From Cycas panzhihuaensis (lineage: Eukaryota; Plantae; Cycadophyta), in contig CM041465.1 of assembly GCA_023213395.1 (NCBI GenBank), positions 205,041,741-205,105,740 of the forward strand: a DNA stretch of 64,000 nt, written 5' to 3'. Below are positions 40,351 through 45,700 of this stretch, piece by piece. The notes beneath the pieces are model-generated. The model was not told the DNA's origin, made no database searches, and was given only the letters and a program-made list of their open reading frames with translations. The position numbers and the translations under genes are program-made. The stretch's first letter is position 1. Every line of letters begins with the position of its first letter.

Positions 40351-41000
40351 TTTGGGGTATATTCAGCTTTCTAGAGAAGCATATACAACATATCTCATCT
40401 TTAGAAGTCTATTTTCTATTGCAAGTCTGCTACAATTGTTTATCAGGTTTTTTAAGTTTCATTTTCAGATTTAAACATATACATATTTCTTGACTCTCTG
40501 ATATATCAGCTTCACACATTTAAAAAATCTCAGATATAAATATATATATGCATTTTATTTGATATATTTTCTTCAAAATATTTAAAAAATTTTCCATTTT
40601 CATTTGTGGCTTGATTGAATCACCAGTTTTTTATGAGTTTATATATAAATATTTTCATTTAAATATTTTTCATTATCATTTTAAGTGATAAGATTGTATT
40701 TTTAGCTTATCTTGGTTAAGCTTTCAGTCTATTTTCTTAGTCTCTTTCATTGCCATAGCTTCCTGCTTGATTTATGAAGAGCTCATTTATCATTTCAATT
40801 AAAACCTCTGTATGTCATTTCCATTCATTGCATGGCATGATAGTCATCTCTTCATCTTTATATTTATACTTCAGATTCATGTCTAGCAACAGACATAGAG
40901 ATAAGAGGTGCATTCAAAGAATGTGAAAGAAGTCTCATCTTGAATACTAGAATCTGATGCAATCTTGATGTCAACATTCTGGTATCTACTCCATCAGCTG

Positions 41001-41067
41001 GACTATTAAATCAGAATGTGTAGTGGCCCCAAAAGGGGTCTCCCATAACCAGAAAAGCTATATTGGA
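41001..41067 (-). pseudogene. DPH5: Captured fragment of diphthine methyl ester synthase
   Basis: Reverse complement translates SNIAFLVMGDPF, then after a +1 nt frameshift GATTHSDLIV, matching the DPH5 signature VAFLVVGDPFGATTHSDLVVR. Confidence 0.88.
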
Positions 41068-41939
41068 CATTAAGAATCAGATGATCCAAGAAGCACAAGA
41101 AAATCTAGTAAATTTTAATTGTATATATGAGTGCAAGAGAGAATATCAATAACTAAACCTTTTTTAATACAATTGAGACAAATGCCCCCTTGTATCTTTT
41201 CCTACATAGGTTGCAAATAAGCAATGTATTAAGAGCTCAATGTAAACAGTCAGCCTGAAAATTTTAAGAAAGTATTTCAAATATAAAATATCCTTATTGT
41301 ACACAAAAAATAACTAAAATAAATAACAAAAAGGCTAACTTTCACCATAAAAACAAAGAGTATCAACATGTTGTCAACTCTAAAATGCACTGCTTCACTT
41401 GCATATTGAAACCAAACAAAGATTCTAGATTTCACGAAAAGAAAAAAAAAAAAAGCAGCATCAACATAGTCAATATTTGAAAATTTTCTGATTCAAAGCT
41501 AGCCTTGATAACTTTAAGTGCTTGTAAAGCAACTAACATTTCCTGAAGCCTTAAAACCTTCTCTTTTAACCTAAGGTTTGCCCTTAGTCAAATCATCCTG
41601 AACACTTTTCAATGATGTTGCAATCTTTCTAAACTCACACATAATCCTGTCATTGCACTGTTACATTTTCTTGGCAACAAGGATTACCACTACAAAGGCA
41701 ATATCCAGTGTGTTCTCTTTCATCCTAAATTCTTTAAGACTTTGGTTAGCTTTTTCTATTTCTTTTGCTTGATTCTCAACCTCATACATAATTTGCTTCC
41801 AATATTTGCTTCATATTAAGGGCCTTTTGATATTAGCCAATGTATGCTTCCATTAAGAAGGCTATTTAAATCCTTGATGTATGATTGGATTCTTGCATTC
41901 GATAGTGCCAGCATTGCTCCAGTTACTGCATATCTCTAT

Positions 41940-42276
41940 GCTACCTCGGAGATCAACTACATATCTCCATAATACCATCTCTACTGTCTGAGATACATCG
42001 ATTTGTTCTCTTGCTACTATTATTTTCCCCCCATTTCTTTGCTCGTGTATTTCTTCTTGGGGTATTAAAAATATCTATTAGTGTAGATTTAACCCTATGT
42101 TCATAAAAAGGCTCCCGTTTCTGAAATCCTTAATTGCAAGAAGGTTTTGTACTTTCATGAACATTGAAAAGTGCTGAAAGAGAATCAACCATAAACACAT
42201 TTGTTGAATTTACAGGGATAGCGTGCCTCTTGCATAATGCCTGAAGTTGCTTTTGTGGAAGACTGTGATAATCCAT
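41940..42276 (-). pseudogene. Captured 5' part of a conserved uncharacterised plant gene (MDFHSL..LQALCK..IPAN family, small HeH/SAP-like N-terminus)
   Basis: MDYHSLPQKQLQALCKRHAIPVNSTNVFMVDSLSAL; the frame continues past a stop to TPRRNTRAKK. Confidence 0.8.
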
Positions 42277-42463
42277 CCTCACATGCACTAGACCAGCTTC
42301 TCTTGCCTTGTTTCTAACCACTATTTTCGTAGCAAAACCAATCAAGAGATGCAACCAAAGACCGACATGAGATTTTAATGTATTAGACTGTATGTAGAAT
42401 CAAACCACACCGATAAACCAAGATATGTTCTTCTTGGTTGACCCATTTTAGATGCTCCATTCG

Positions 42464-42703
42464 CTACATAGGTCCGTTCACCAACAAGACGAGCACCATA
42501 TGCACTATTTCACTCCCAATAGAGATTGGCCTTAGTTGGCTACTGATTTCTTCCAAATTCAGTGGAGCCAAAACATTATCTATAATAGCTCTAACAAAAA
42601 ATAGAGCTAACTCATTTGTAGCATCAGGTATGTCTAAGGTAGTATCCTCGGCATCCTCTAGCAACAAAACAAAACCATTCACAATATCATCTACTAGAAT
42701 CAC
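42464..42703 (-). pseudogene. Captured fragment of an MA3-domain translation regulatory factor (MRF / PDCD4-like)
   Basis: DDIVNGFVLLLEDAEDTTLDIPDATNELALFFVRAIIDNVLAPLNLEEISSQLRPISIGSEIVHM closely follows the plant MRF MA3 repeat (EDIVNGFVMLLESAEDTALDILDASNELALFLARAVIDDVLAPLNLEEI). Confidence 0.92.
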
Positions 42704-45700
42704 CTACGTATAAAGAGCAAATAACATAGGGGGTGGCACATTGTGCAGGCCGTGTGATAGGAGCAATGCGGTGGAGGTAGCATTTAGGGTGGTGGCTGAA
42801 GCGTGGTGGCAGCTATGCAGTGGCAACGATGCCACTATTAATTTAAAAATTTTATTTTTTATTTTTTTATTTTCTATTTATTATAAACTTAAAAAAAATC
42901 TAATTAAGTTTTATAAGATTTAAAATGCAGGGTTTTGAAGTCTTACCCCCCTCTTTACTCCTAGCCCCCAGTCACATTCATATTCATATGACCATTAACT
43001 TATGTTCAAAGGAGCCAATAATATATTATAACCGTTTTTCTTTTTATTTTTTTTAAATTTTTTATTTTACACAGGGTATCTGGCAAATGTTTGCTATAAC
43101 TTTTCGCTAGTTCATCAATTTTTGACAAAACTATCCTATTATGTTTAGAATTTTCTGTAGTGTGATTTTGACTAGTCATATGACCAATTTGGAGTTGATT
43201 TGACCCACTTTCAGTCAGTTTAAAGTCAATCAACAATTTTTTGAGCATTTTAAAATATTTTTACAAAATCACTTTTTAACAAATTACATCTTATCAGCGG
43301 GAGATTGTTTTCTACCTAGATCTATTCTATAGTTGACTATTATCAATAAACTTCATTACCACTTATTTATTTTAATTTTTAAGAATTATTTTTATCATTA
43401 TTTTAATCACCAAATGTGATACTTTAGCAGTTTTTGAACATTTTACCATAAAAGTACTTGTTGCTATTTTCACTATAACTTTTCTGTTTTGTATCAGAAT
43501 TCAGCTTTGTTAGTTCTGTTAGGAAGATGACTCACTCCTCTTTGAACTGACAAGTTTTTTATATGTTTTAAAGTGTTTTTTATATATTTTCAAATCTATC
43601 AAATTTGAGGTACTTAATAGTCTCTAATTATCATTATTACATATTTACACATATTGTTTCTTAAAATTTTTCAATTGAAAATATATTAAGCAACTTTTTA
43701 AACCATATTTGATCATTTCTTATTACTTTATAAAGTTTTATTAGCATTTTTATAATATCTTGAGCCCCTGCTCCTGTTGAGCCTAAAAAAGAGGGTTGTT
43801 TATTTTGGTCATTCAAATATTGACTTATAGGAAACCATTTTTAAAACGGTCAGTTCCATTGGATAGTTTTTTCATTAATCTTTATATTGGTGAAACTTCA
43901 CATTATTCTGATGTGGTTTAGTATAATTTTCAAGTTGTCAAACTTGAGCATACAAGTCTATCCTAATAAGCTTGTTCTTTAAACTTGTTTTAAGAAAATT
44001 CTATTTTATTTCTTATTGATCACTTATACTATATATTTAAGTATCTTATTTGACTTTTATATAAGCTATTTTTAAGCTAATTTATAATAGAAAGTGATCT
44101 CAATCAAGTGATAAGCCAAGCAGACCTATAATTTAAACGAGTACAATTTATTTTTTAAAAGGTTTCTTCTTCATATTCGTTATATTTCAAAGTGAAAATA
44201 CTCATATATTTCAATTTTAGCATTATATATTATTATCAATACAAAGAATTTATTGCATTAAAAGTTTATATTTATTTAAAAAATTAAAAGGTCAAGGATT
44301 ATATTTTTTATCATGAAAGCTATATTTCAGATTTGTGTAGCTAAAAGATTTTTTGTTATATTTAAATTTGCTTATATATTCATTATTTCCTTATTGCATT
44401 TAATTGATTTATTTTCAAAGGGCATTATATTTCTTTAAAAAAAGTTTATTTAAAATCATTTATGTTTATTGGTTTATTGATCTTTGTGACTTAGTGAAAG
44501 CATGTCCTTTTATGTACTAAAGTTTTTTGATAAAATGGTATTCAATCGTAATCAAGTACAATTTCCTATTTTTGATGGCCATAATTTTTTACAATGGCAT
44601 AAGATTATGCAAAATTATTTCATTACATATGATCTTTAGAAATATTTGCAACATGAATGTGATCTTAGTATTAAAGAAAATTTTAGAAAGGATAATGAAG
44701 TCTTATGGATATTATTTTGCACTATTGATGATAATGCATTTTCAAAAGTTTGTGAATTAACAACCTCTAAATTCGTATAAGATATTTTGATTTCCACTTA
44801 TGGGGGAGATACCCTCAATGTATTTGACATTGATTTTGTTGAGCATATGAGACAAGTGCCAAAACAAGTAAATTATAATGAAAAGACCAAGGAAGACACA
44901 AATCAAATATATGATCAACTTATTTTACAAGAACCTGATCCTCTAATTGAGGGGGAGAATGAATCTTATCATATGATAAAGGAGAGTTATGATGATTTGA
45001 CAATTGTTCATAATACAAAGACTTCAGAAGATGAAGTTCAAGTTCAAAGTTTTCTTAATGTTCTAATTGAGAAAGTCAAAGTTGCAGCTACACATATACT
45101 TTTGAATCAAGCCTCTTCTACTTACAGATTTTTTGTACTACTTCCTGATAGAAGGATACATGTTGCTAGAAGATTGAATTAAGTTAATAAAGATCAAGTT
45201 AAAAGATAGAATTTTAAAGTTTTTTTCAACTACAAATTCTATAAGTTTAAAGAGAAGACATTGTTCGTGATGATTATTAAGGGGGTGAATGTTGGGGTTA
45301 ATAGTCATCACCCCACTCCCACCTTCCAACTAGGAGTGCACACCTCATCTTCATCAATTTACACATGTGGGTGCTCAACATGTGTAGGTAAGTACAAGGT
45401 AAGTTTAGTTAATTTGAGTTATGTTTACTTTGAGTTAAGTTTATATTATTTTATTATTATTTAAATTTTAGGGGTTAAGGAGTTTCCCTCTTCCAAACTA
45501 TATAATTTGAGGGGTGTGCAACCCTGGTGTCTTTAGACATTTGTAACTCTCTTCATAATATGGATTGAATACAATGACTCTTATGATTGTGCAATATTGA
45601 TATATTGATGATTTATTCTATGTTCTGCCATGTTCTCCATGATTTTATTTCTTTCATTTGGTATCAGAGCATTTGGGCCTGTATTATAGTTCCTACATAA

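What the first reader, a model, noticed from the sequence alone, without database searches (positions are those of the whole stretch)
40880..42840. Pack-like LTR element carrying antisense fragments of at least three unrelated host genes
Seen: within TSD-bounded F, fragments of an MRF/MA3 gene, the MDFHSL-family gene and DPH5 lie within 2 kb, all on the minus strand and so antisense to F. Established: gene capture is known for Pack-MULEs, Helitrons and some LTR elements such as maize Bs1. Inference: this is a multi-gene chimeric cassette in a LARD-type element. It could give a spliced chimeric transcript, or antisense RNA/siRNA against the parent genes from the LTR promoter. Two of the three donors are translation-related, which may be chance.
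Basis: partly seen in the sequence, partly recalled or inferred. Interest (0 to 1): 0.8.

Follow-up and report, generated by a model that had tools for sequence, protein, structure and literature searches.

The report
Decayed retrotransposon hoarding backward gene scraps
An old, broken plant jumping gene carries scraps of three firmly identified host genes (plus a likely fourth and an unidentified fifth piece), all facing backwards, which it likely picked up one after another; such hoarding is common in this plant group, so the locus is mostly ordinary.

Summary
F is one integration event: LTRs 38922-39335 and 45290-45697, TAATA target duplication, primer site and purine tract on the + strand, LTR divergence 0.079 (about 18 My at the gymnosperm rate). 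The 'MDFHSL' piece is only weakly supported (SAP-like). A fifth piece (41810-42028) is unidentified. The three firm pieces are broken. No convincing TIR, TSD or Helitron end surrounds the cargo. Contigs from four public runs give the backbone very high summed depth, the DPH5 end intermediate depth and the middle near single-copy depth, which suggests stepwise loading with copying in between. Multi-fragment capture is common in gymnosperms (13,002 such elements in Ginkgo, 6,433 in Cycas; PMC13477047). Antisense cargo is also known (no orientation bias in maize Sireviruses). There is no expression evidence, and the translation-gene theme is likely chance. Verdict: new member of a known kind; interest 0.3.

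The parts
38917..38921 (.). 5' target-site duplication (TAATA)
   Evidence: identical to 45698-45702
38922..39335 (+). 5' LTR of F, 414 bp. It starts TA (TG in the 3' LTR), ends CA, and holds an older CA + primer-site copy at 39297-39308
39338..39349 (+). Primer-binding site (initiator-Met type, assignment recalled); a further similar copy lies at 39380-39391
39685..40305 (.). AT-rich tandem arrays in the leader (periods about 143, 181 and 20/40)
40200..40723 (.). High-depth backbone left of the cargo; many loose ends with low agreement after 40592 in 3 of 4 runs
   Evidence: tables 2 and 7
40724..40990 (.). Unassigned sequence shared by many contigs, next to the DPH5 piece
   Evidence: no Pfam family near its cut-off in six frames
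40998..41067 (-). DPH5 (diphthine synthase) fragment, 23 residues, with one extra base near 41031
41070..41460 (-). AT-rich non-coding spacer, intron- or UTR-like (inferred); run of 13 A on the + strand at 41442-41454
41465..41798 (-). Kinesin-12 (POK-like, label recalled) stalk fragment, one stop and one frameshift
41810..42028 (-). Fifth piece, donor unidentified. It matches the middle of longer contigs in 2 of 4 runs; the strand rests on composition only
   Evidence: table 8 (X1 record 6, X2 record 11); searches did not name it
42160..42410 (-). Likely first-exon piece of a SAP-like ('MDFHSL') gene: ATG at 42276 with upstream sequence; tentative
   Evidence: table 8 (X4 records 20-22); one search found no homologue
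42479..42732 (-). MRF / MA3-domain translation regulator fragment, one stop, followed by a shift of frame
   Evidence: (X2 record 12)
42735..43081 (.). GC-rich then AT-rich linker, low depth; small hairpin at 42819-42836
43082..44100 (.). Very high-depth backbone right of the cargo (laid only as far as 44100)
   Evidence: table 2
44541..44810 (+). Decayed Copia-gag-like frame, two stops (identity recalled, not confirmed by a library)
   Evidence: best of six frames by composition; Pfam blank
45278..45289 (+). Polypurine tract
45290..45697 (+). 3' LTR of F, 408 bp, TG...CA
45698..45702 (.). 3' target-site duplication (TAATA)

Best explanation
F is a 6.8-kb LTR element, likely non-autonomous and Copia-derived, in a likely gymnosperm genome, whose interior holds broken backward-facing pieces of MRF, kinesin-12, DPH5 and likely two more host genes; it likely gained them one at a time at one loading site and copied them passively in later rounds of retrotransposition. 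Shown: single integration (LTRs, TSD, primer site, purine tract), three donor identities, strand, lesions. Inferred: (1) the DPH5 end came first and spread with a subfamily, while the middle pieces came later and are rarer; (2) capture was mostly not by plain mRNA template switching, which gives sense cargo, but at the DNA level (break repair) or through an antisense template; (3) antisense pieces persist because their splice and polyadenylation signals do not cut the element's + strand genomic RNA; (4) this copy has been silent and decaying since about 18 My ago, and at most adds donor-matching small RNAs.
For: Element anatomy. Donors. No convincing TIR, TSD or Helitron end around the cargo. 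Summed contig depth (X1/X2/X4/X7): right backbone thousands to tens of thousands; left backbone 2015-5566/2826-5413/2075-3602/50-218; DPH5 bin 144/109/99/25; kinesin bins 40-61/15-27/13-33/0-6; middle bins 0-15; long donor-like contigs 4-6.5. At 41006, inside DPH5, 6/13/13/2 contigs carry a variant, many for a gene that is usually single-copy (recalled). Listed contigs bridge cargo joints: X7 record 27 (40949-41134), X2 record 10 (40877-41055), X4 record 23 (42653-42789). Decay: 23 of the 32 listed differences between 40707 and 42765 have window T/A against contig C/G and 4 the reverse (40 of 491 rows were shown). In Platycladus, multi-fragment carriers are more frequent among LTR classes (Copia 9.6%, Gypsy 18.6%, other LTR 13.9% of carriers) than Mutator (3.0%) or Helitron (2.1%) (PMC13477047 Table S39). 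Secondary retroposition of chimeras is described in PMC5131818.
Against: No second full copy of F was seen: no genome was held, and no listed contig joins the high-depth backbone to the cargo (38615 pieces not shown). The tool warns that summed depth is no copy number; the runs are relatives holding at most 20% of the words, and about 46-47% of three runs was read. The MRF end and 42820-43081 have more depth than the middle, so the gradient is not strictly one-way. Intron gain or loss, which separates DNA from RNA capture, could not be tested. Four of four pieces on one strand has p = 0.125 by chance, 0.06 for antisense specifically. A weak AT-only 25-nt inverted match (40627 against about 42880; reached by 1-2 of 200 shuffles, in 2 of 6 comparisons) could be a relic TIR. 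The gag identity is unconfirmed.
Confidence: 0.6

Rival explanations
1. The cargo is a separate Pack-MULE, Pack-CACTA or Helitron that gathered the fragments in its own sense, inserted backwards into an ancestor of F, and lost its ends.
For: It explains co-orientation at one stroke. Maize Helitron cargo is 78.6% sense, and 68% of Helitron and 50% of Pack-MULE carriers have two or more pieces (10.1101/777037). Weak AT-only inverted match; depth changes sharply at 43082 and about 40720; small hairpin at 42819-42836.
Against: The longest exact inverted match across the 700-bp flanks is an AT-rich 12-mer; no Helitron hairpin + CTRR end was found, and the listed CACTR/YAGTG sites form no pair bracketing the cargo. 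Direct repeats shared by the boundary zones are AT-only 8-9-mers. Mutator and Helitron carriers in Platycladus seldom hold more than one fragment. Uneven depth across the cargo fits one inserted unit poorly.
Confidence: 0.2
2. The pieces came from mRNAs by template switching during reverse transcription, onto an antisense transcript of the element or through an inverted step, as in Bs1 and LTR-mediated retrocopies.
For: The pieces are exon-sized and abut one another (kinesin starts within about 12 bp of where two contigs stop). Partial, multi-parent chimeras are the hallmark of this route (PMC5131818). Maize Sireviruses show no orientation bias.
Against: Retrotransposon-transduced genes are usually in the sense of gag-pol (PMC7264820). 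The cassette has intron-like spacers and upstream non-coding sequence. No spliced junction could be shown.
Confidence: 0.13
3. The cassette is a working unit: a spliced chimeric transcript or an antisense/siRNA regulator of MRF and DPH5 kept by selection.
For: The + strand LTR promoter would read the cargo antisense (geometry). The DPH5 end looks multi-copy. Donor genes are more methylated in Platycladus, and 19.81% of captured fragments are transcribed there.
Against: Stops or frameshifts in all three firm pieces. Deamination-type decay and zero CG in both LTRs. Only one strong donor-like splice site (41537) lies below the MRF start on the minus strand in a simple scan. Pieces differ from relatives' long contigs by about 10-15%, which limits small-RNA pairing (inferred). 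Donor functions are mixed.
Confidence: 0.05

Closest known systems
Gene-fragment-carrying LTR retrotransposons of gymnosperms (Bao et al. 2026, PMC13477047; abstract, sections 12 and 16, passages, Tables S38-S39 seen)
   Same: LTR element with several exon-sized pieces from unlinked genes; 13,002 multi-fragment elements in Ginkgo and 6,433 in Cycas; median piece 232-321 bp, like these.
   Different: Four or five pieces here, all on one strand. The word 'orientation' does not occur in that paper's main text, and the tables seen give only 1 versus more than 1 piece.
Maize Bs1 and LTR-mediated chimeric retrocopies (PMC5131818 passages; PMC13317346 passages)
   Same: Partial copies of three or more parents inside a non-autonomous LTR element; further rounds of copying.
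   Different: Bs1 forms a transcribed and translated chimeric gene, and such retrocopies are more often transcribed in the parental sense. Here the pieces are antisense and broken, with non-coding spacers.
Maize Sireviruses with captured exons (Muyle et al., 10.1101/777037; passages seen)
   Same: Copia-type LTR carriers; 15% of carriers hold two or more pieces; no orientation bias; proposed siRNA cross-talk with donors.
   Different: F lacks pol, and no small-RNA data exist for it.
LARD and TR-GAG non-autonomous LTR elements (PMC4350172; passages seen)
   Same: LTRs, primer site and purine tract without pol; size above 4 kb as in LARDs; a possible gag relic as in TR-GAG.
   Different: LARDs have lost coding regions, while F may keep a gag relic. 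TR-GAGs were defined at 4 kb or less with an intact gag frame, while F is 6.8 kb with a broken one. Neither is defined by host cargo.
Antisense additional ORFs of Grande, RIRE2, Retand (PMC7264820; part 1 of 3 seen)
   Same: Antisense coding-like sequence inside an LTR element.
   Different: Those are conserved ORFs between pol and the 3' LTR with no host homologue; these are broken host-gene pieces.

Membership tests
LTR retrotransposon (one insertion) | Paired direct LTRs with TG...CA ends | tested here: met
   the 5' LTR starts TA, a single transition from TG
LTR retrotransposon (one insertion) | 4-6 bp target-site duplication | tested here: met
   TAATA on both sides
LTR retrotransposon (one insertion) | Primer-binding site after the 5' LTR and purine tract before the 3' LTR | tested here: met
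Gene-capturing LTR element | Host exon pieces between the LTRs | tested here: met
Gene-capturing LTR element | Cargo moved with the element (other copies share backbone-cargo joints) | tested here: inconclusive
   multi-contig cargo and bridged inner joints, but no listed backbone-to-cargo contig; no genome held
LARD | Longer than 4 kb | tested here: met
   38922-45697 = 6776 bp
LARD | No gag or pol coding remains | tested here: inconclusive
   No Pfam retroelement family in the frames scanned (not every interior frame was scanned), but a gag-like frame at 44541-44810 (motif recalled)
TR-GAG | At most 4 kb with an intact gag reading frame | tested here: not met
   6.8 kb, two stops in the gag-like frame
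Pack-MULE / Pack-CACTA | Terminal inverted repeats and 8-11 bp (or 3 bp) TSD around the cargo | tested here: not met
   only an AT-only 25-nt inverted match, so a decayed TIR is not excluded
Helitron | 3' hairpin followed by CTRR | tested here: not met
   one search found none in 40300-43400 on either strand; the hairpin at 42819-42836 lacks the CTRR end
mRNA-derived retrocopy (Bs1 type) | Lost introns, microsimilarity at joints | not testable with these tools
   No donor gene models; one search returned only one, apparently non-plant, contig
mRNA-derived retrocopy (Bs1 type) | Cargo in the sense of the element | tested here: not met
   All three firm pieces are antisense to the primer site and purine tract
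'MDFHSL' plant protein family (name recalled) | Sequence match to family members | tested here: inconclusive

The most novel reading that the evidence does not exclude
F belongs to a high-copy non-autonomous LTR family with a fixed loading site in its leader that takes in host-gene pieces one after another and keeps only antisense ones. Its DPH5-bearing subfamily spread to tens or hundreds of copies across several species. That would be an LTR counterpart of Pack-MULEs with a strand filter, and a dated, layered source of antisense RNA against housekeeping genes.
Probability: 0.15. Interest if true: 0.62.

Novelty: new member of a known kind. Interest (0 to 1): 0.3.

Why it matters
As one locus it matters little: thousands of multi-fragment carriers are already counted per gymnosperm genome. 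It is a clean worked example, with intact boundaries, a date and four or five co-oriented pieces. How LTR elements capture gene pieces, and why some hold them antisense, is still described as poorly understood (PMC13477047 section 16). If the layered cargo and strand filter hold across the family, the order and route of capture could be read directly from nested copies, and siRNA cross-talk to a usually single-copy gene such as DPH5 could be tested.

Tried and rejected
No whole genome was held, so other F copies could not be listed. No RNA holder was listed; this is no evidence on expression. Reads were laid only on 40200-44100, so the LTRs and the gag-like part have no depth data. The SAP-like piece gave 1 candidate and no hit. 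The fifth piece stayed unnamed. The full HMMER scan of its best frame gave only beta-propeller-repeat proteins of probably bacterial origin and a dinoflagellate protein, judged spurious (4 of 5 hits). Pfam on six frames was blank or far below cut-off, two PDB searches gave E 0.18 or worse, and the last homologue search gave 0 of 20 candidates. A DPH5 motif scan of metagenome contigs found one contig with an intron-free DPH5 start, apparently non-plant: it confirmed the two-frame match but says nothing on plant introns. Rfam found 0 matches at E 0.1. The gag-like frame matched no Pfam family and nothing else in the window. A 73% match of 42840-42929 to 30105-30189 is AT-rich and was dismissed. 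The bacterial promoter scan does not apply to a plant. Earlier scan findings: 0 in three look-ups. Rejected: that F's 3' LTR is followed by its own primer site and starts a tandem element; the motif is inside both LTRs, and the TSD closes the element. Rejected: a translation-gene theme. Paper searches listed no report of this element; they cover open-licence papers only.
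Full report
Element. Self-comparison shows a direct repeat pair at about 38921-39336 and 45289-45698. The LTRs run 38922-39335 and 45290-45697, with TAATA on both sides; that word has a 0.006 chance at a fixed place. A primer site follows the 5' LTR at 39338 and a purine tract precedes the 3' LTR, so F reads on the + strand. Both LTRs contain an older LTR end plus primer site, which can mislead the boundary call. The LTRs differ at 29 of 392 sites, 24 of them transitions, K2P 0.079. 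That gives about 18 My at 2.2e-9 per site per year, the gymnosperm rate used in PMC13477047. Neither LTR has a CG. F sits inside another LTR element (repeat pair near 36472 and 49271, primer site at 36818). The host is likely a gymnosperm: the best named relatives of two pieces are Ginkgo proteins.

Cargo. MRF: Pfam MA3 above cut-off, and 78% over 83 residues to Ginkgo Gb_01138, 42727-42479, minus strand, one stop; a profile of 86 of the 120 listed homologues gave the same span. DPH5: read with X at the break, 23 residues match diphthine synthase in PDB (E 2.6e-5; nearly all of the 60 rows shown, of 78, are named so) and TIGR00522 (E 6.3e-5); the two frames taken alone matched nothing in NCBIfam. 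Kinesin-12: a full HMMER scan of the middle gave 5 hits, one being Ginkgo Gb_22755, a 2430-residue kinesin. It aligns at 41798-41465 on the minus strand in two frames, E 8.5e-20; the reversed window gave nothing better than E 4.7. The SAP-like piece at 42276-42160 has only weak support, and its family name is recalled. A fifth piece, 41810-42028, matches the middle of a 600-base and a 465-base contig from two runs, both stopping at 41810-41812, but no search named it. A composition score picks the minus strand for it, as it does for MRF, kinesin and the SAP-like piece. Four of four pieces on one strand is not significant on its own (p 0.125).

Other copies. No genome was held. Ten public DNA runs from five studies hold 5-20% of the stretch's words; four were laid on 40200-44100 at 80% likeness. 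Summed depth is in the thousands to tens of thousands right of 43082, and in the thousands left of 40592 in three runs. It is 99-144 over DPH5 in those three runs, 13-61 over kinesin, 0-15 in the middle and 4-43 over MRF. Long contigs that run on into unlike sequence, the likely donors, have depth 4-6.5. Short contigs bridge the DPH5 piece with both flanks (X7 record 27) and the MRF upstream joint (X4 record 23). The tool warns that summed depth is no copy number, and no listed contig ties the high-depth backbone to the cargo. So 'layered cargo in a large family' is a suggestion, not a result. The extra base in DPH5 is absent from one contig in each of three runs, and 23 of 32 listed cargo differences have window T/A against contig C/G, 4 the reverse (40 of 491 rows shown). 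This copy has decayed the way methylated DNA does.

Secondary insertion. Exact and gapped searches for inverted repeats, boundary duplications, CACTA ends and Helitron ends gave only AT-rich matches. The best, 25 bases, is reached by 1-2 of 200 shuffles in 2 of 6 comparisons, so an old TIR is not excluded.

Mechanism. I commit, at 0.6, to stepwise capture into the F lineage with passive copying between steps. Plain mRNA template switching gives multi-parent chimeras (PMC5131818 passages), but transduced genes are usually in the element's sense (PMC7264820 part 1 of 3). Antisense pieces with non-coding spacers fit DNA-level capture or an antisense template better. They would also spare the genomic RNA from foreign splice and polyadenylation signals. 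These steps are inferred; intron status could not be tested. Rivals are a decayed Pack or Helitron insertion (0.2), RNA capture (0.13) and a selected regulator (0.05).

Comparison. Gymnosperm elements capture about 400,000 fragments per genome, and 13.68% of carriers hold two or more (PMC13477047 abstract and section 12). Table S38 lists 13,002 such elements in Ginkgo and 6,433 in Cycas; Table S39 shows LTR classes lead in multi-fragment share. Maize Sireviruses show no orientation bias and 15% of carriers hold two or more pieces (10.1101/777037 passages). F meets the LTR tests and the LARD size test. It fails TR-GAG on size and frame (PMC4350172 passages) and may hold a gag relic at 44541-44810 (recalled motif; for, blank). 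PMC13317346, PMC12924346 and PMC10552921 were seen as passages only.

Verdict. It is a new member of a known kind, interest 0.3. The bolder reading, a loading site with an antisense filter, has probability about 0.15 and can be tested with the host assembly.

Noticed in passing
window 39291-39335 and 45653-45697: Both LTRs of F end with an absorbed copy of an older LTR end plus primer site, and one more primer-site-like unit follows at 39380; the LTR boundary seems to have slipped about 40 bp into the old leader.
   Followed up: partly
window 36472-50259: Outer LTR element hosting F, same orientation, primer site at 36818, with gag/pol-like remains after 45703 (recalled motifs); its 3' LTR is split by about 650 bp between 49498 and 50144.
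   Followed up: partly
window 41326-41411: Contigs from 3 of 4 runs share a joint from 41411 back to 41348 with 26 extra letters, pointing to a common structural variant of the spacer in other copies (table 5c).
   Followed up: no
window 41442-41454: A run of 13 A on the + strand right beside the end of the kinesin piece; could be a poly(A) relic or an intron T-tract.
   Followed up: no
window 44541-44810: A gag-like frame sits about 5 kb after the primer site and close to the 3' LTR, so the cargo would lie in an expanded leader (identity recalled).
   Followed up: partly
window 10146-11018: Long AT/AC/AG microsatellite, about 870 bp, 14% GC bin.
   Followed up: no
window 1926-6201, 12286-22236, 13757-19988, 23183-32258, 29678-32382, 50808-57226: Six further direct-repeat pairs, 77-92% alike, likely nested LTR elements; minus-strand primer sites at 19669 and 21867 and a plus-strand one at 29822.
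   Followed up: no
L001:2380-2732: AT-rich metagenome contig ending in an intron-free DPH5 start, apparently non-plant.
   Followed up: partly
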